Shown here: in pieces, positions 916 through 30,317 of the stretch | Layout: each line of letters begins with the position of its first letter | Numbering within the stretch: the first letter of the stretch is position 1 | DNA from: a virus | Taxonomy: Duplodnaviria; Heunggongvirae; Uroviricota; Caudoviricetes | Reading direction: 5' to 3' (one strand) | DNA: 36,587 bases | Virus record (IMG/VR): IMGVR_UViG_2703718784_000020 | Notes under the pieces: model-generated | Told to the model about the DNA's origin: nothing | The model's database searches: none | The model's input: only the letters and a program-made list of their open reading frames with translations | Made by a program: the position numbers and the translations under genes

Positions 916-1002
916 GCCCGGATGGTGGAATCGGTAGACACAAGGGATTTAAAATCCCTCGGCGTTCGCGCTGTGCGGGTTCAAGTCCCGCTCCGGGTAC
1001 CA
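916..1002 (+). tRNA. leuZ: tRNA-Leu (anticodon UAA), long variable arm
   Basis: 87-nt sequence GCCCGGATGGTGGAATCGGTAGACACAAGGGATTTAAAATCCC...CCGGGTACCA; class II tRNA with extra arm, anticodon TAA. Confidence 0.9.
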
Positions 1003-1043
1003 TGGGAAAGATAAGAATAAAATCAAAGCAATAAGCAGTGTCG

Positions 1044-1069
1044 TGAAACCACCTTCGGGTGGTTTTTTT
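1044..1069 (+). terminator. Rho-independent terminator after tRNA operon
   Basis: Hairpin GAAACCACCTTCGGGTGGTTT followed by T-run (ACCACC/GGTGGT stem, TTCG loop, TTTTTTTG). Confidence 0.6.
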
Positions 1070-1204
1070 GTATTTGTATTTTGTTAAATGGCGGTAAAGT
1101 GGCGATGGTGTGGCGATATGCAGAAATAATGATAGTACACGTCTGTTTAAACTCTAAGGGTGAAGCAAAACTCTCCTGCAACTCATCTGCATTTCGCATA
1201 TTGA

Positions 1205-2648: not shown

Positions 2649-3758
2649 TCACTCTGTTTCCGCTATCCATTCCGGGATTTTTGCTTCAAGCTCAAGCTGC
2701 GTGGTAAAGCCGCTGTTATCAATGGTGTGCTCGGCTTTTGCAATAATCCAGTCCTGATTGTCGATGTCATTTTTGAAGCCTGTCACCGTGCCATGCATTT
2801 CGGGATAGAGTTCTGCACGTCCACGCGCCAGCGTGATGGAAAATGATGCGGCTCCGCGTTGTAGTTGCTGCCACTTTGCCGCCGCTGCGCGTCTTGCTGC
2901 CTGCTCGTTCTGATAAGTCTTGCGTAACACAAACACATTGCCTTCCGCGCCTTCCATATAATCACCTTCACGGCTGCTGCTTTTCTCCTTTTTGGGTTTT
3001 GGCGGTTTACGGCGTTTCACGCTGACTTTTTTCTTTTTCCCGTAATTAAGATCAAGCCAGTAGGCGCGCACCCCCGTATACGCCTCGCGGTCAGCAATAC
3101 GGAACTGATGGCGATCGCCGCTGCTGCGTGTAATGGCGAACGAGGGCAACGGCTGGCCCTGTGCGTTCACGCCACCACCTGGCATGATGAATAACAGATT
3201 GCCGCTTTTTACCGTGGTGATTGCGCCCAGCATTTCCGCCATGCGCGTAAGGAAGGACATGTCGCTTTCTTCGGTCTGGTCGGCGTGGTCGATTTCGATA
3301 TCCATCAGCATTTCGCTGATTTGCGGTTTCAGACCATACCGATGAGCGATGGCGGATACCACACGCTCAACGGTCACATCATGCCAGGACACCTCACGTT
3401 TAACGTTAAATTCATCCCGAAAATCTGCGCTTCTGGCTGAAACAGTCAGCCTGTCCGGCGGTCCTTCGTGAGCGATTTCATCAACAATGTAAGTGCCTTT
3501 TTCTGTCAGCGGTTCTCCTTTCCAGCCAATGAGAACCGTCAGGCGCGCGCCCCGTGGCGGTAGCTGCAACTGACCATCCGCATCATCCAGCGTGATGGTG
3601 AGCTGGTCCGCCTCAAATCCCCGGTTGTCGGTCAGTGACAGGCTCATCAGGCGCTCTGCCACGCCTGACAGCGTTTTACCCTCCGCGAGAATATCAAAAT
3701 CCGGCATTTTCACGGGGTCTGTGCCCTGACTGAGCAATTGCATGGTGGTATCGGTCAT
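2649..3758 (-). CDS. D: Tail/baseplate hub protein gpD (late control gene D family)
   Basis: ORF track 2649-3890; the likely start is the ATG at 3758 (MTDTTMQLL...) preceded by GGAGGG; C-terminal region ...ELYPEMHGTVTGFKNDIDNQDWIIAKAEHTIDNSGFTTQLELE typical of phage GPD proteins. Confidence 0.85.
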   Translation of the reverse strand: MTDTTMQLLSQGTDPVKMPDFDILAEGKTLSGVAERLMSLSLTDNRGFEADQLTITLDDADGQLQLPPRGARLTVLIGWKGEPLTEKGTYIVDEIAHEGPPDRLTVSARSADFRDEFNVKREVSWHDVTVERVVSAIAHRYGLKPQISEMLMDIEIDHADQTEESDMSFLTRMAEMLGAITTVKSGNLLFIMPGGGVNAQGQPLPSFAITRSSGDRHQFRIADREAYTGVRAYWLDLNYGKKKKVSVKRRKPPKPKKEKSSSREGDYMEGAEGNVFVLRKTYQNEQAARRAAAAKWQQLQRGAASFSITLARGRAELYPEMHGTVTGFKNDIDNQDWIIAKAEHTIDNSGFTTQLELEAKIPEWIAETE

Positions 3759-9587: not shown

Positions 9588-10826
9588 TTATAAAGAATGG
9601 CTACTTTCTAATTCTGGGTTTCTGGATCTATTTTTACAACCTAAATCCGAGTGGTAATCCGGTATATCGTTTGTCAAATCTTGTTTGATAGCATTAATTA
9701 AGAGCATTATGTCGAATTTATGCATATCGTCGCCCCCTTCAGACCTTAGATGTTCGGATGTGGTGAGTTGAGTCGCTAATTTGCTGTTTGGCCCCCATAC
9801 AATATTATTTTCGAATTTTCCTTCATGCATTCTGTTATTATATATACAGTATTGTCTAATGTTTAATGCACTGGCTAAATGTACAATGGCTGTATCTACA
9901 GTTATAACAAAATCAGCATGGCGAACCAATGCAAATGAACATCCGGCATCAGAAAATGGAGATAGAGACACATTATCCAATCCATTGTGATTAATCTGTT
10001 TTCCCATATTAAAAACTATTGTGTGATATCCCTTAAGGTTATTGAGGTAAGCTAGTACTTTGTTTATCTGTTCATCAGATAAGGTTCTGCTATTCTGAGA
10101 GCCATAAGGGTTAAATATAACTAATTTTTTGTTTTTCTTCCTGAATTCATTTGCAACAATATTTGCTGGTTCATATATTTTGTTGTCAAAATTAAGCGCT
10201 GCAGCATAATTATTATTTTTTATCTTTAGTAAAGATAAAACTTTTTTCATTCTTTCAGATGTGTGAATGGAACGATTATCGATTATATTTGTATCAAAAA
10301 TAGTTACGGCAGGATGATTAAAACAGATAGAGTGTTTAGGTCTAAGTAAATGTAGTGTTTGCAATCTGGTTATCGCTGTGTTATCAAAATTTGAGAAGTC
10401 AACAACAAGATCTACATTCAGTTTTTTTATCTTTGCTTTTAGTTCGTTAAATTTATTTTTCTCGTAAGATATAAAGGCATCCACGCCAACAATATCAGTA
10501 AAGAGGAATGATACTCTTGAAGGTGCTATCACATATACCACCATACCGGATTTTTGAAGTTGTTTAATAAACCCTGAGGTAACGATGCCGTCACCAATGG
10601 CTTGCATGTGCATGAAAATGCACACTGTTTTATAACTATCCGGCTGTAATGATGTTTTCCTTCTGTATCGCATTTTTAGAAATGCCAGTCTGGCCTTCGT
10701 CTTTATCTTTTTTGTTTTAATATTTCGCTGTCTGTTAAGCTGTTTTAATGATGAAATAACATTCATAATGGTACCCTGAAATTCCAAATCACACATGTCA
10801 TCCGAAATGAGCAGGGTACTATACAA
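9588..10826 (-). CDS. Glycosyltransferase family 9 (ADP-heptose:LPS heptosyltransferase-like) cargo gene at the Z/fun position
   Basis: Visibly AT-rich ORF; N-terminal fold motif CIFMHMQAIGDGIV and C-terminal motif FVITVDTAIVHLASALNIRQYCIY...WGP resemble GT9 signatures; the ORF-track start is a TTG, the first ATG in frame is at 10766. Confidence 0.65.
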   Translation of the reverse strand: MYSTLLISDDMCDLEFQGTIMNVISSLKQLNRQRNIKTKKIKTKARLAFLKMRYRRKTSLQPDSYKTVCIFMHMQAIGDGIVTSGFIKQLQKSGMVVYVIAPSRVSFLFTDIVGVDAFISYEKNKFNELKAKIKKLNVDLVVDFSNFDNTAITRLQTLHLLRPKHSICFNHPAVTIFDTNIIDNRSIHTSERMKKVLSLLKIKNNNYAAALNFDNKIYEPANIVANEFRKKNKKLVIFNPYGSQNSRTLSDEQINKVLAYLNNLKGYHTIVFNMGKQINHNGLDNVSLSPFSDAGCSFALVRHADFVITVDTAIVHLASALNIRQYCIYNNRMHEGKFENNIVWGPNSKLATQLTTSEHLRSEGGDDMHKFDIMLLINAIKQDLTNDIPDYHSDLGCKNRSRNPELESSHSL

Positions 10827-26166: not shown

Positions 26167-26454
26167 ATTTCTGGCCATCTGACTGGTTATCTGTGCGGTT
26201 GGTACTGGCTGTGACAGGGGGTGTTCTGTCCTGGTTTGTGTCACTGATAACGCCTCATCATCAGCCCATGCAGCCAGTCGGTAAGCCTCTGCCGGATTCA
26301 TTTTCAGAAGTGCCAGCCCGGCCAGAAAAGCCACGCGTTGGCCGCTTTTGCGGGCTTCTGGTGTAAGGCTGTCCAGCCAGGCGCATGCTTCGCCTTCGTT
26401 CTTGACGGCGGCGGGCTTCAGATAGAAACTTATCCGTCTGGTTGGTGTCGTCAT
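26143..26454 (-). CDS. parR: ParR-like ribbon-helix-helix centromere-binding protein
   Basis: ORF track 26143-26583; from the ATG at 26454 the 103-aa product RRISFYLKP...LDSLTPEARKSGQRVAFLAGLALL...ALFP aligns by eye with plasmid R1 ParR (RRTIAFKLNP...LDSIPQGERSRLNRAALTAGLALY...SLFP); RBS GGAG 9 nt upstream. Confidence 0.7.
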   Translation of the reverse strand: MTTPTRRISFYLKPAAVKNEGEACAWLDSLTPEARKSGQRVAFLAGLALLKMNPAEAYRLAAWADDEALSVTQTRTEHPLSQPVPTAQITSQMARNIRALFPE

Positions 26455-26458
26455 TGGT

Positions 26459-27418
26459 TTACTCCTTGTCCATTGCGTACAGCCCATTAACCAGAGCAAA
26501 CTGTGGCACCCCGTCCGCGATGAAAGTCGCATTAACTCCGCAGGCTTCGCGGATAGCGGGTGCCACAATCTCCGCTCCTCCACCTACAACCATCACCCGC
26601 CCGTAACCCGAAAAACCCGCCAGCGCGCGGATCACGCGTTGTTTCAGTGTTTCTTCCTTTTCACGAATAACCGCCATCAGGCTGGCGTAATGTGCGTCAT
26701 TGTGGATGTGCTGGCGCAGCCAGGCTTCATCGTGGCGATGTTCGATAATGGTATTGGCGATGTGGTGACTGGTACGCATACCGTTAGTGGCCATCACCGA
26801 CAGTACGGCATCGGCCATCAGAGAAACGCCTACGTGTGGATCGCAAAATACCTGGCTGATACCTGCCAGCTGCCCCTGAACCTTTGCCACATCCAGCGTG
26901 GTTCCGCCTAAATCCACAATCAGCAGGGATTCAAACGGACTCATGTCAGCCAGTGCCTTAAAGCCAGCCGGAATGGATTCAGGCATAACCCGCACGTTAC
27001 GGATAGTGAATGCTTCGCCGTTCTGGTACTCCACCGGGCGCATAACGTTCGCTTTTTTGCGGTTGATGTTGGCCATGTCCGGCTGTGCGTTTGTGTCGAA
27101 ATACTCGCTCAGTGGCAGGGTGACAACCACATCCACTTCCTGTGGTGTGATGCCTGATTTGACCAGCGCGTGATGAATGGCAATTACATTCACATCGCTG
27201 TACTGGTATTGCGTGTCGGTCGTCTGGACAAAGCGATCGCTGACCGGATCAAAACCATAGCGCACGCCATCAAGCATGTAGTTCGCGGGCTGCGTGCCAC
27301 CGAACGGCGCAGACCATTCCGACTTGAAGCTGTTCGGGCTGATGGCGTTGCGGCGTTCGCCGTTCTCAGTCCATGCCAGCTTGATGTTGGTGGAGCCGTC
27401 GTCGATACAAATTTTCAT
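26459..27418 (-). CDS. parM: ParM/StbA-like actin-type segregation ATPase
   Basis: 319-aa product MKICIDDGSTNIKLAW...ISPNSF...YSDVNVIAIHHAL...VMPESIPAGF...SLLIVDLGGTTLDV...GVSL...MVVGGGAEI closely parallels my recollection of plasmid R1 ParM along its whole length. Confidence 0.85.
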   Translation of the reverse strand: MKICIDDGSTNIKLAWTENGERRNAISPNSFKSEWSAPFGGTQPANYMLDGVRYGFDPVSDRFVQTTDTQYQYSDVNVIAIHHALVKSGITPQEVDVVVTLPLSEYFDTNAQPDMANINRKKANVMRPVEYQNGEAFTIRNVRVMPESIPAGFKALADMSPFESLLIVDLGGTTLDVAKVQGQLAGISQVFCDPHVGVSLMADAVLSVMATNGMRTSHHIANTIIEHRHDEAWLRQHIHNDAHYASLMAVIREKEETLKQRVIRALAGFSGYGRVMVVGGGAEIVAPAIREACGVNATFIADGVPQFALVNGLYAMDKE

Positions 27419-27454
27419 GTCGTTTTTCCTTATGTTGATTAATTAATCGGTTAC

Positions 27455-27544
27455 AGGATTTTTAAATCCCGCTTTTGCCTGTTTTGTGCGCGCTTCATAT
27501 ATCGCGGCACGTTTTTTGCTCATTTACGGGATTTGTGAATCCCG
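27455..27544. promoter_or_regulatory. parC-like site: two copies of an imperfect palindrome flanking a promoter-like AT-rich core
   Basis: CAGGATTTTTAAATCCCGC (27455-27473) and CGGGATTTGTGAATCCCG (27527-27544) lie either side of GCGCGCTTCATATATCGCGG, directly upstream of parM. Confidence 0.5.
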
Positions 27545-28172
27545 TTTCTGTCTGTTTTTTGTTTCCACTGGTCAGGCTACCCCGCAGCAGGTCTGCTTTG
27601 CGGCTGGCGCGTTCAGTGGTTTCAGTGATTCTCTGTGCGTGCTCTGCGTCGCGGATGGCGCGCAGCATGTCAGAAAGCACGGTAACGGGTGTTTTCATGG
27701 TGTTCTGGTCCTGCTGAAGTGTGGATGCCAGGCGTGCGGCGGCTTCAGGGTCTGATGCCCCCAGCTGTGCCAGATAGCTGGCGACCGGGTTATGGCGGAT
27801 CTCCGTGCTGCTTACGCCATGATTACGGCTCAGGCGCTGCCAGAGCTGCGTGATTCGGCTGTCCGGGCGGGTATCCGGTTTGCGTACAATTTCAAATCCC
27901 TGCGGTGCAATGATGCTGCCGTCAACGTACAGACTGCCGCCCCGTAACAGGTGCTGCATCTGTTGTTCACCGATATGCAGGCCGAGAGATTCAGCAGACT
28001 CCCGCCATTCTTTAGCGAGTAATTCGTGGTTATCAGGCAAAGGCCGCTGCTGTTTGCGGCTCTGTGTCCAGCTCTGCATTTCATCACTGCTGTTTTTTGC
28101 CTGTTTGTCACGAAGCGAACGCATCAGCGCCCGGCGTTCGTGCCGTTTCAGTGAGCGCATCCATTCGTTCAC
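27495..28172 (-). CDS. Hypothetical protein; reading frame continuous with gene A across a single TAA
   Basis: 225-aa ORF (track start is a GTG); the 89 codons between the gene A stop at 28440-28442 and this start are also open in the same frame. Confidence 0.4.
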   Translation of the reverse strand: MNEWMRSLKRHERRALMRSLRDKQAKNSSDEMQSWTQSRKQQRPLPDNHELLAKEWRESAESLGLHIGEQQMQHLLRGGSLYVDGSIIAPQGFEIVRKPDTRPDSRITQLWQRLSRNHGVSSTEIRHNPVASYLAQLGASDPEAAARLASTLQQDQNTMKTPVTVLSDMLRAIRDAEHAQRITETTERASRKADLLRGSLTSGNKKQTETGFTNPVNEQKTCRDI

Positions 28173-28439
28173 TTCAACGCCGTCAGGGAGCTGCGGCCAC
28201 GGTGCTGGCCGTTCTTCCGGCTGTTCTGTCCCGTTGTTGTCCGTTTCCTGTACACGGGGACAGTTATTGCCACGAGTCCAAGGGGCGGCAGGGCCGCCCT
28301 GAAGGTCAAAACCATTTTCGCGGGCGCTGTCTTCCGCTTCCGGTTTGCGTCTTACCAGCTTCCAGTTGTCCGGATGCGTGCATACGCGGGAAGACTCCCC
28401 GATGAGCGGTGACCAGATCCCGTAAATCTGTACGCTCTG

Positions 28440-30317
28440 TTAACCGTAATCGTTCAGCTCATCTGCGAGGTCGTAGGCGGTGCGAATCAGGTAGTCCTTG
28501 CGTGGAACAAGTACGCCGCCCTGTTTCTCTATGTAGGTGGCAAAACATCCGGCATCAGCGGCAGCAAGAACCGCGTCCATTGCGTCATCCTTCAGCCGTT
28601 GCGGTCCTTCCGGGTTGCGAGCCATCTGGCTGGCAAGGCGGCGCAGTTCACGCCACACCTGACGGGAGGGGATACCAAAGAACTGGAACTGGCGGACCCG
28701 GTGAAGGCGCGCCCAGCCGATGGCGCGTTCCACGCTCTCGGCCATTGATTTTCCGGTTTCGTGGTCAACGCGTGGCTTGCCCGTTTTCGGGTCGATGCCA
28801 TCCACGGCACGGCTGTCCAGGTTTTTCCCGATGTAGGTGGCGATGTAGCTGGTCGGTGTGCCTTTTGAGCCGTCGACGTACTCCGCCTTAAAGCGTGGGG
28901 TAATATCATCACCCAGCTCGTGACGATCTTCCTGAATGGCAATATCGCGGGTGTGGGACACAATGGTGTCGATTTCTTCCGGATGAGCAAAGACCATCAT
29001 ATGCCAGTGCACGGTGCCGTCATGGTGAGGCTCCACCGTGCGGATGCCATACCAGCGCAGGCCGTCGCGGTTCAGTTTCTTGCGGACCGCCGCAAAAAAC
29101 GTGTTAACCAGGTAATCGCTGGAGTCGCGCATGGTGGCCCCGTTCCATTTGGGATTCGGATGACCGTTCTCTGTTGTGGCGTGGTATTTTGACGGGCAGG
29201 TGACAGTCAGAAACACCGCTTTGTCGCCACGGGCTTCGGCCAGAAGTTCCAGCCCCTTCATGGTGGCCATCATTTCTGCCTTACGATGAACCGGGTTACT
29301 TACTCCCGCGTAATACACCGTCTCGAGATCAATCGTGAACCCGTCTTCGTTTTCCAGCATGAAACTTTTCAGGAAATCGCGTGTTTTCTCGCGCTGTGCG
29401 CGAAACTCGCTTAACGCGTCCTGGCTCAGATAGGGCGATGTTTTTCTGGAAACCAGACAGGCGGCGCGGAGTTGTTCTTCCCGCCACTCGCAACGTAACA
29501 GCCACAGTTTGCGTTTCCACCATTCCGCACAGGTCAGGCGAAGGATTGCGCCCGGCAGCAACTCCGTGTCCGGTTCGTTCCTCCGGTCTTTGTCTGTTGT
29601 CAGTGCGTCATAATGCGGAGGCATGGCGTGCAGGTGTAACGCCATGCGGGCCAGCATCTGATACGCCTTCAGCGTTACATCCATGGTCAGCTCGCCATCA
29701 GTCGCGCCAAAGCCATCGCAGAGTTTTTCGAAGGTGCTGCTGAACATCGCCGCCGTCATGGTGGCCAGCGTCTGTATCTGGTGCTTGTTGAGCTGCGGCA
29801 GGTAAAGCAAATCGTCCAGGCGTTCGCGTCCGGCAAGGGAGCGATAACCCGGTGTCAGCCAGCGGTGGTCGGTGCGGTCCAGACGTTCGAATATTTTGCG
29901 CAGGGTTCCGCGCGCGTAGCGTTCAGCCTGCCAGCTCTTTTTGCCTTTCCGGCGATCGGCTTCCTGTTTTTTGCGCAGGAAGGAGAGGTGGCGAATAAGC
30001 GGATCGCGTAGATAGGACGGCAGCAGGCGCAGCGAGGCCATGGCTTCATCCACCGCACCGCGTACCTGTTTTCTGGCGTCTCCTGCCAGTGTGATGGTTT
30101 TGTCCTGTTTTTCCTGTGCGTCCAGGCTTTTATTAATCAGGTTGCCCAGCGGCGTGGCGGAGAACGCCGCATCAGCCATTTCCTGGCGGCGCTCGTTCTC
30201 TGCCCGGTAGGCATCCAGCCAGGAGGAAAGCGCGGATTCAGGAGCGGGGATCCCCGTTCCTTCACGCCCCACTGCGTGGCGCGGTTGCTGCCAGTCCCTG
30301 ATGTACTCTGCCGTCAT
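28440..30317 (-). CDS. A: Replication initiation endonuclease gpA (rolling-circle, HUH family)
   Basis: 625-aa product with the HUH metal-binding motif VHWHMMVF and the tyrosine pair SYIATYIGK typical of P2/186 A proteins. Confidence 0.85.
   Translation of the reverse strand: MTAEYIRDWQQPRHAVGREGTGIPAPESALSSWLDAYRAENERRQEMADAAFSATPLGNLINKSLDAQEKQDKTITLAGDARKQVRGAVDEAMASLRLLPSYLRDPLIRHLSFLRKKQEADRRKGKKSWQAERYARGTLRKIFERLDRTDHRWLTPGYRSLAGRERLDDLLYLPQLNKHQIQTLATMTAAMFSSTFEKLCDGFGATDGELTMDVTLKAYQMLARMALHLHAMPPHYDALTTDKDRRNEPDTELLPGAILRLTCAEWWKRKLWLLRCEWREEQLRAACLVSRKTSPYLSQDALSEFRAQREKTRDFLKSFMLENEDGFTIDLETVYYAGVSNPVHRKAEMMATMKGLELLAEARGDKAVFLTVTCPSKYHATTENGHPNPKWNGATMRDSSDYLVNTFFAAVRKKLNRDGLRWYGIRTVEPHHDGTVHWHMMVFAHPEEIDTIVSHTRDIAIQEDRHELGDDITPRFKAEYVDGSKGTPTSYIATYIGKNLDSRAVDGIDPKTGKPRVDHETGKSMAESVERAIGWARLHRVRQFQFFGIPSRQVWRELRRLASQMARNPEGPQRLKDDAMDAVLAAADAGCFATYIEKQGGVLVPRKDYLIRTAYDLADELNDYG

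What the first reader, a model, noticed from the sequence alone, without database searches (positions are those of the whole stretch)
27495..28442. Replication gene A ends at a single in-frame TAA followed by about 314 further open codons
The A reading frame stops at TAA (28440-28442), but the same frame stays open for 89 codons before the first candidate start (a GTG at 28172) and then for another 225 codons. The stretch between stop and first start encodes a proline/glutamate/glycine-rich linker-like sequence. An 89-codon open run by chance is unlikely, so this is either a nonsense mutation splitting a longer gene (prophage decay), stop-codon readthrough, or a downstream gene with an unusual start.
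Basis: seen in the sequence. Interest (0 to 1): 0.45.

Follow-up and report, generated by a model that had tools for sequence, protein, structure and literature searches.

The report
Nonsense mutation in prophage replication gene
A single base change has put a stop codon in the middle of the replication-initiator gene of an otherwise intact P2-family (P88-like) prophage of E. coli, so the long "open" stretch after the stop is simply the rest of the same gene; this is an ordinary case of a prophage being crippled.

Summary
On the minus strand, gene A (start 30317) stops at TAA 28442-28440. The same frame then stays open for 89 codons with no start codon, followed by 225 more codons to TGA 27497-27495.

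It is not readthrough and not a separate gene. In phage P88, in the nearest E. coli prophage (STEC2018-607, 11 SNPs and no gaps over all 36,587 bases) and in other relatives, the two pieces form one 940-codon "replication endonuclease" ORF. Codon 626 is GAA (Glu) there. The window differs by one G>T change, at window position 28442.

The TAA allele was found nowhere else:
- 0 of 1,425 places in 1,284 complete E. coli genomes;
- 0 hits in IMG/VR, GTDB genomes and JGI metagenomes, whereas the GAA allele gave at least 120 IMG/VR hits.

P2, 186 and Fels-2 gpA all run through this position. The stretch after the stop also holds the P2-type replication origin (nick-site homologue at 28289-28260).

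The truncated 625-aa product keeps the HUH motif and the catalytic tyrosines but loses 314 residues. All other phage genes are intact. The most likely reading is a recent inactivating nonsense mutation; a base-calling error cannot be excluded without reads. Ordinary, low interest.

The parts
28443..30317 (-). Gene A (P2-type rolling-circle replication initiator, 'replication endonuclease'), codons 1-625, up to the premature stop.
   Evidence: ORF list and translation. Pfam Phage_GPA PF05840 covers residues 179-503 at 439 bits against a cutoff of 31.4. PHROG 91 'nicking at origin of replication' profile positions 30-588. 98% identical to P88 gpA.
28809..29783 (-). Phage_GPA catalytic domain (residues 179-503).
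   Evidence: coordinates checked.
29001..29009 (-). HUH motif (His437-Trp-His439).
   Evidence: Invariant in the alignment with Fels-2, P2 and 186 gpA. Translation checked.
28833..28847 (-). YIATY: the two tyrosines Tyr491 and Tyr495.
   Evidence: Y491 and Y495 are invariant columns. Translation checked.
28440..28442 (-). Premature ochre stop TAA at codon 626. It is GAA (Glu) in relatives. The single differing base is window 28442 (T on the gene strand, G in relatives).
   Evidence: No identical 61-mer in 1,425 places of complete E. coli genomes. The TAA 29-mer is absent from IMG/VR, GTDB genomes and JGI metagenomes, while the GAA version gave at least 120 IMG/VR loci. Glu or Asp at this column in all homologues that cover it.
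27495..28439 (-). Remainder of gene A: codons 627-940 plus the native TGA stop (27495-27497). In this sequence it is no longer translated as part of A.
   Evidence: Gap-free and in frame with the N-terminal part. PHROG 91 profile positions 592-852 and PHROG 6857 positions 547-855. In 95 phage records tblastn matches lie under (where annotated) the replication gene, with one unannotated Salmonella genome contig as the exception. 75 of 106 IMG/VR relatives have exactly 315 codons from GAA to the stop.
28260..28289 (-). Predicted origin of replication (homologue of the P2 and 186 nick site): GCCGCCCCTTGGACTCGTGGCAATAACTGT, encoding AAPWTRGNNC. By alignment with P2, the nick is predicted near window position 28279.
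   Evidence: The P2 and 186 records annotate rep_origin nick sites inside gene A, with sequences shown. The motif lies at the equivalent codon in all five genes. Against Fels-2 this is the joint most conserved 11-codon stretch at nucleotide level (32/33), while the genes are 54% identical overall; all 9 degenerate codons in the block use the same codon against a 48% background. PMC8537503 states that the nick site lies within the gpA ORF and is conserved among Peduovirinae.
28170..28172 (-). GTG, the first start-type codon after the stop. There is no evidence that it is used.
   Evidence: No promoter-like site between 27300 and 28600. It is an internal Val codon of the 940-codon ORF in relatives.

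Best explanation
The window is a P88-like (Xuanwuvirus, P2 family) prophage of E. coli. Its gene A normally encodes one 940-residue rolling-circle replication initiator. That protein nicks the phage origin, which lies inside its own coding sequence.

In this copy a single G>T transversion has changed codon 626 from GAA (Glu) to TAA. The 314 'open' codons after the stop are the rest of the same gene and have had no time to accumulate further damage. Translation should now end after 625 residues. The truncated product keeps the Phage_GPA domain, the HUH motif and the two tyrosines, but lacks the C-terminal third.

Inferred, not shown: the prophage can no longer start its own replication after induction. 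In P2, A works preferentially in cis, so a co-resident helper would probably rescue it poorly. The element remains a stably inherited, otherwise complete prophage.

Whether the base change is a real mutation or a consensus base-calling error cannot be settled from the sequence. A real, recent mutation is more likely.
For: 1. Nearest relative: E. coli STEC2018-607 is colinear over all 36,587 bases with 11 mismatches and no gaps. Its gene A is one 2,823-bp CDS and differs from the window's at two bases, one of which turns GAA into TAA.
2. P88, GPT24-02 and MIN10 also carry a single 2,823-bp CDS with GAA. P88 is a mitomycin-inducible, plaque-forming phage (PMC5285337).
3. The allele is derived and private: 0 of 1,425 places in 1,284 complete E. 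coli genomes match the 61-mer exactly. There are no exact 29-mer hits in IMG/VR, GTDB genomes or JGI metagenomes, against at least 120 IMG/VR hits for the GAA version. The 90%-identity protein cluster has 16,881 members, and most of the 15 listed are 940-946 aa.
4. Distant homologues span the site. P2 (761 aa), 186 (694 aa) and Fels-2 (809 aa) gpA align through it with Glu or Asp, and have invariant residues on both sides. The same holds in 22 further homologues.
5. PHROG 91 and PHROG 6857 profiles match the two pieces contiguously.
6. In 120 IMG/VR relatives the frame is open for at least 622 codons upstream in 86 of 91, and 75 of 106 end exactly 315 codons downstream.
7. No other gene is broken. 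All 55 CDS annotated in the nearest relative are intact in the window except A. All P88 head, tail and lysis proteins match full length without stops.
8. Cis action and covalent attachment of P2 A to its own template are stated in PMC11719329. The origin within the gpA ORF is stated in PMC8537503.
Against: - No reads are available, so a sequencing or consensus error at one base is not excluded.
- The window's differences from its nearest relative have an odd spectrum: 9 of 11 are transversions and 8 of 10 coding changes are non-synonymous. The two other window-derived changes I tested are also private. This fits either very recent unselected mutation or imperfect base calls.
- The loss of function is inferred. 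The catalytic core and the origin are intact, no data were found on whether the C-terminal third of gpA is essential, and the structure model of that region was too poor to use (pLDDT 50.8).
- The far C-terminus is variable in length and sequence among homologues, and its dN/dS is higher than that of the N-terminal part, on small counts.
Confidence: 0.85

Rival explanations
1. Sequencing, assembly or consensus error: the strain really has GAA, and the T at 28442 (gene strand) is a wrong base call.
For: The allele is unique among all collections searched. The window-versus-relative differences are transversion-rich and mostly non-synonymous. Two other window-derived SNPs are also private.
Against: There is not a single indel over 36.6 kb against the nearest relative, which argues for a well-polished sequence. 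About half of the 11 differences are derived in the public relative rather than in the window, so the unusual spectrum is not specific to the window. Private SNPs at about 2e-4 per site are normal between non-clonal isolates.
Confidence: 0.12
2. Functional stop-codon readthrough or suppression. The TAA is decoded at some frequency (by a host ochre suppressor or by leaky termination at UAA-C), giving both a 625-aa and a 940-aa A protein.
For: The downstream frame is perfectly intact. UAA followed by C is a comparatively weak termination context in E. coli (general knowledge, not tested here).
Against: The stop is absent from every relative examined, so there is no conservation, which is the hallmark of programmed recoding. 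The tRNAs in the window are ordinary: Gly-GCC, Cys-GCA and Leu-UAA anticodons. The intact downstream frame is fully explained by the mutation being recent.
Confidence: 0.02
3. The downstream 225-codon (GTG 28172) or 314-codon ORF is an independent gene with its own start.
For: A GTG exists at 28172, and gene callers would list a 225-aa ORF there. Some public assemblies contain C-terminal fragments called as separate proteins.
Against: In relatives the GTG is an internal Val codon of one 940-codon CDS. In all 95 phage records the homologous sequence lies, wherever the record is annotated, inside the replication gene; one unannotated Salmonella genome contig is the exception. There is no promoter-like site in 27300-28600. 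The separate fragments are mostly labelled 'partial' at contig ends, or come from other broken copies. Conservation is continuous across the stop and across the 89 start-less codons.
Confidence: 0.01

Closest known systems
Replication endonuclease (gpA) of Escherichia phage P88 (NC_026014, SF19_gp16, 940 aa) and the same gene in E. coli STEC2018-607 (WP_198777243.1)
   Same: Same gene at the same place in the same genome organisation: hypothetical 121-aa ORF, then A, parM and the parR-like gene. 98% protein identity to P88 and two nucleotide differences from STEC2018-607.
   Different: The window has TAA instead of GAA at codon 626. The relatives encode the full 940 residues.
Gene A of phages P2 (NP_046795, 761 aa) and 186 (NP_052289, 694 aa): rolling-circle initiator with the origin inside its own coding sequence
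   Same: Phage_GPA domain, HUH motif, tyrosine pair, and a nick-site sequence ending in CAATAACTGT that encodes ..NNC.. at the equivalent position.
   Different: Only 33-34% protein identity. The P88-type protein has a longer and different C-terminal tail, and the window copy is truncated upstream of the origin.
Classical nonsense (amber) mutants of P2 gene A, used to show that A acts in cis
   Same: A premature stop in gene A of a P2-family phage, with the expected phenotype of no phage DNA replication and poor complementation in trans.
   Different: Those were selected laboratory mutants. This is an ochre codon found in a sequenced prophage, and its phenotype is untested.
Point-mutation pseudogenes in otherwise intact prophages (early prophage domestication or decay)
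   Same: One disabling substitution in an essential phage gene while the rest of the element is intact. Other public genomes also carry broken copies of this gene (fragments on long contigs).
   Different: Nothing distinctive. It has a single lesion, so it is at the very start of any decay.

Membership tests
Phage_GPA (PF05840) / P2 gpA rolling-circle replication initiators (HUH endonuclease superfamily) | Significant match to the family profile | tested here: met
   PF05840 at 439 bits against a cutoff of 31.4, residues 179-503. PHROG 91 'nicking at origin of replication', E = 2e-220.
Phage_GPA (PF05840) / P2 gpA rolling-circle replication initiators (HUH endonuclease superfamily) | HUH metal-binding motif | tested here: met
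   H437-W-H439 are invariant with P2, 186 and Fels-2; window 29001-29009.
Phage_GPA (PF05840) / P2 gpA rolling-circle replication initiators (HUH endonuclease superfamily) | Pair of active-site tyrosines (Y-x-x-x-Y) | tested here: met
   Y491 and Y495 are invariant columns; YIATY at window 28833-28847. Their catalytic role in P2 is recalled from memory.
Phage_GPA (PF05840) / P2 gpA rolling-circle replication initiators (HUH endonuclease superfamily) | Origin or nick site located within the gene's own coding sequence | tested here: met
   By homology only. A 30-nt block at 28289-28260 aligns with the annotated P2 and 186 nick sites and shows nucleotide-level conservation beyond what the protein requires.
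Phage_GPA (PF05840) / P2 gpA rolling-circle replication initiators (HUH endonuclease superfamily) | Complete, uninterrupted reading frame as in functional members | tested here: not met
   TAA at codon 626 of 940. The locus is a member by descent, but a disrupted copy.
Phage_GPA (PF05840) / P2 gpA rolling-circle replication initiators (HUH endonuclease superfamily) | Site-specific nicking and covalent attachment activity | not testable with these tools
   Needs biochemistry with the 625-aa and 940-aa proteins.
Programmed stop-codon readthrough | The stop codon is conserved at the same position among relatives that keep the downstream frame | tested here: not met
   0 of 1,425 E. coli places. 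0 hits in three public collections against at least 120 for GAA. Glu or Asp in all homologues.
Programmed stop-codon readthrough | Detectable extended product | not testable with these tools
   Needs proteomics or reporter assays.
Independent downstream gene | Own start codon and expression signals, and presence as a separate gene in relatives | tested here: not met
   No start-type codon for 89 codons. No promoter-like site. Relatives have one CDS.
Recent nonsense pseudogene | An intact orthologue in close relatives, and one substitution that accounts for the split | tested here: met
Recent nonsense pseudogene | The change is real in the organism (not a base-calling error) | not testable with these tools
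   No reads available.

The most novel reading that the evidence does not exclude
The most novel reading not excluded is that the truncated A(1-625) is still active. It retains the complete Phage_GPA domain, the HUH motif and both tyrosines, and the origin 160 nt downstream is untouched. The prophage might then still replicate. Alternatively, the truncated protein might act as a free nickase or a dominant-negative initiator against incoming P88-like phages (a superinfection-exclusion by-product). Either outcome would show that the C-terminal third of P2-type initiators is dispensable or regulatory.
Probability: 0.06. Interest if true: 0.4.

Novelty: already known. Interest (0 to 1): 0.1.

Why it matters
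It matters little beyond annotation. The two ORFs should be annotated as one disrupted gene A (a pseudogene), not as a short replication protein plus a hypothetical protein. The prophage should be predicted to be replication-defective despite a complete set of structural, lysis and regulatory genes. It also illustrates that a long open frame after a stop most often marks a very recent nonsense mutation. As a by-product, the work places the probable origin of replication of P88-like phages at window 28289-28260, inside gene A.

Tried and rejected
- Structure of the region around and after the stop: AlphaFold2 on P0016 (residues 482-940) with 25 aligned homologues gave mean pLDDT 50.8 and pTM 0.22. 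That is too poor for fold searches, so none were run. The predicted beta-hairpin straddling the stop is noted but not relied on.
- Solved structures: no PDB sequence match for the 940-aa protein at E <= 1.
- Family libraries: Pfam and NCBIfam have no family for the C-terminal 314 residues.
- The search for homologous proteins with the C-terminal piece returned mainly 'partial' fragments of 550 aa or less, rather than full-length proteins. It was useful for the alignment but not as a census of architectures. The census came instead from 120 IMG/VR loci and the cluster listing.
- Exact-protein look-up of the 625-aa product found one Logan contig (SRR14130607_87). That contig simply ends at '...GGC GA' within codon 626, so the match is an artefact of a contig end and not a second carrier of the stop.
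- Suspected second lesion in gpD, because relatives annotate only 267 aa: rejected. A full 369-codon gpD ORF is intact at window 3758-2652.
- dN/dS of the post-stop part among close relatives rests on too few substitutions to be informative.
- Literature on the role of the gpA C-terminal region or on mapped A nonsense mutants: nothing found in the held library. The Reiersen 2005 paper is not held.
Full report
**Observation.** The feature is on the minus strand. Gene A starts with ATG at 30317 and reaches TAA at 28442-28440 after 625 codons. The same frame continues for 89 codons (28439-28173) that contain no ATG, GTG or TTG. GTG follows at 28172, and then 225 codons run to TGA at 27497-27495. 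With the window's base composition, the chance of 314 consecutive open codons is about 9e-7, and of 89 about 0.02.

**What the locus is.** The window is a P2-family prophage of the P88 type (genus Xuanwuvirus, Peduoviridae). It sits next to pgsA and the tRNA-Gly, tRNA-Cys and tRNA-Leu genes of E. coli. It is colinear over all 36,587 bases with a prophage of E. coli STEC2018-607 (NZ_CP075697.1), with 11 mismatches and no gaps. A 3-kb query across the gene finds near-full-length matches in about 1,300 of 5,426 complete E. coli genomes.

**The stop is a single private substitution.**
- In P88 (NC_026014, 5957-8779), STEC2018-607, GPT24-02 and MIN10 the region is annotated as one 2,823-bp 'replication endonuclease' CDS of 940 codons.
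- Base by base, the window's gene differs from the STEC2018-607 gene at two positions. One changes codon 626 from GAA (Glu) to TAA. The differing base is window 28442.
- Three outgroups have the G, so the window allele is the derived one.
- A 61-mer centred on the stop has no perfect match among 1,425 places in 1,284 complete E. coli genomes.
- A 29-mer with TAA has no exact match in IMG/VR, the GTDB species genomes or the JGI metagenomes.
- In those 120 loci, the frame is open for at least 622 codons upstream of the site in 86 of the 91 that reach that far. 75 of the 106 with a downstream end have exactly 315 codons from GAA to the stop, as the window would have.
- The 90%-identity protein cluster of the intact protein has 16,881 members, and most of the 15 listed are 940-946 aa.

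**Distant homologues span the site.** An alignment of the intact protein with gpA of Fels-2 (45% identity), P2 (33%) and 186 (34%) runs straight through codon 626. Those proteins have Asp, Glu and Glu there, and there are invariant residues on both sides: Y624, G633, T647, W652, V655, N684, N685 and C686. Twenty-two further homologues that cover the column have Glu or Asp. The PHROG 91 profile ('nicking at origin of replication', 852 positions) matches the upstream piece at positions 30-588 and the downstream piece at 592-852. PHROG 6857 matches at 181-545 and 547-855. In 95 phage records, sequence homologous to the downstream piece lies, wherever the record is annotated, under the replication gene; one unannotated Salmonella genome contig is the exception. 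The two pieces are one gene.

**What lies after the stop.** The 89 start-less codons are not just a linker. Their first 60 residues hold the nearly invariant positions of the whole C-terminal part: IYGI, P, CT, W and APWTRGNNC. The P2 and 186 records annotate the replication origin (the A-protein nick site) inside gene A. Those sequences are ...GCGCCTCGGAGTCCTGTCAATAACTGT... in P2 and ...CTCGGAGTTCTGTCAATAACTGT... in 186. They align with window 28289-28260, GCCGCCCCTTGGACTCGTGGCAATAACTGT, at the equivalent codons. Against Fels-2 this block is identical at 32 of 33 bases, while the genes are 54% identical overall. It ties with the HUH motif region as the most conserved stretch, and all nine degenerate codons in the block use the same codon against a 48% background. 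I therefore predict the origin of this phage at 28289-28260, with the nick near 28279, about 160 nt downstream of the premature stop. PMC8537503 states that gpA nicks an origin located within its own ORF and that the nick site is conserved among Peduovirinae.

**Consequences (inferred).**
- The truncated product of about 71 kDa keeps the Phage_GPA domain (residues 179-503), the HUH motif (29001-29009) and the tyrosine pair YIATY (28833-28847).
- It loses 314 residues, including conserved positions directly after the stop.
- P88, which carries the full-length gene, is a mitomycin-inducible, plaque-forming phage (PMC5285337).
- P2 A attaches covalently to the very DNA that encoded it (PMC11719329). 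It is classically cis-acting (Lindahl 1970, from memory).
- The most likely outcome is therefore a prophage that cannot initiate its own replication and is hard to rescue in trans.
- This is the only visible lesion. All other CDS annotated in the nearest relative are intact. Every P88 head, tail and lysis protein matches full length without a stop. The event is thus recent, which is why the downstream frame is still open.

**Rivals.**
- A base-calling error cannot be excluded without reads. The 11 differences from the nearest relative are unusual: 9 are transversions and 8 of 10 coding changes are non-synonymous. Two other window-derived changes are private as well. On the other hand, there are no indels over 36.6 kb, and about half of the differences are derived in the public genome rather than in the window.
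- Programmed readthrough fails its defining test, because the stop is not conserved. No suppressor tRNA is encoded in the window.
- An independent downstream gene is not supported. Relatives have one CDS, there is no start codon for 89 codons, and there is no promoter-like site.

**What led nowhere.**
- The AlphaFold2 model of residues 482-940 was poor (pLDDT 50.8).
- There were no PDB, Pfam or NCBIfam matches for the C-terminal part.
- The single exact match to the 625-aa product is a Logan contig that merely ends within codon 626, where it reads GA.
- A suspected truncation of gpD turned out to be an annotation choice in relatives; the 369-codon ORF is intact at 3758-2652.

**Verdict.** This is an ordinary, probably very recent nonsense mutation (GAA>TAA, Glu626) in the replication-initiator gene of a common E. 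coli prophage, or less likely a single wrong base call. It belongs to a well-known family and a well-known kind of event, so interest is low.

Noticed in passing
window 28260-28289 (- strand): Probable origin of replication of P88-like phages, inside gene A. The 30-nt block is homologous to the annotated P2 and 186 nick sites and nearly identical in DNA to Fels-2 (32/33 bases), although the genes are only 54% identical at nucleotide level.
   Followed up: yes
window 27451-27488 and 27524-27561: A 38-nt direct repeat (82% alike, 73 nt apart). Each copy holds a palindrome GGGATTnnnnAATCC. One copy is in the last codons of gene A and one is in the spacer just upstream of parM. This is a candidate parC-like centromere or operator of the ParM/ParR-like module.
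   Followed up: no
window 26146-27418 (- strand): An integrated P2-family prophage carries a plasmid-type actin-like partition module directly downstream of gene A: ParM (319 aa, 100% identical to P88) plus a ParR-like protein of about 103 aa. It is conserved in P88, phiSM and over a thousand E. coli prophages. Its role in an integrating phage was not examined.
   Followed up: no
window 790, 7180, 7244, 9798, 15190, 17455, 22748, 28442, 29474, 30349, 31691: The 11 differences from the nearest public relative are 9 transversions and 2 transitions, and 8 of 10 coding changes alter the protein. By outgroup comparison about half are derived in the window and half in STEC2018-607. The three clearly window-derived changes (15190, 28442, 31691) were each tested and each is private. 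The spectrum resembles unselected or transversion-biased mutation, or imperfect base calls.
   Followed up: partly
window 28439-28444: The G>T change that makes the stop also creates an HpaI site (GTTAAC), giving a simple diagnostic digest.
   Followed up: no
window 2652-3758 (- strand): Tail gene D is an intact 369-codon ORF here, 98.6% identical to P88 gpD. RefSeq annotation of the near-identical prophages in STEC2018-607 and GPT24-02 calls only the last 267 codons plus a small 'pseudogene', which looks like an annotation start-site problem.
   Followed up: yes
window 9588-10766 (- strand): By coordinate transfer from the STEC2018-607 annotation, a glycosyltransferase family 9 gene sits between the tail-fibre assembly gene and gpU, where P88 has its invertible tail-fibre segment and DNA invertase. 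It is a likely lysogenic-conversion (LPS-modifying) cargo gene.
   Followed up: no
window 916-1071: The prophage abuts tRNA-Leu (anticodon taa, 916-1002). A 124-nt segment (948-1071) is repeated exactly at the far end of the prophage in STEC2018-607, beyond the window's right edge. This is the likely att repeat, which regenerates the tRNA 3' end.
   Followed up: partly
L012 (Logan SRR14130607_87), 267-2141: A public contig ends within codon 626 of gene A (reading ...GGC GA). It therefore yields a 'protein' identical to the window's truncated product without containing any stop. Exact-sequence look-ups can mislead in this way.
   Followed up: yes
gene A codons ~716-940 (window 27495-28172) and relatives P0037-P0049: The far C-terminal tail of P88-type A proteins is modular. 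Several unrelated tail variants of different length follow the conserved origin-encoding segment in different E. coli prophages. IMG/VR relatives show tails of 290-332 codons and a recurrent 199-codon form.
   Followed up: no
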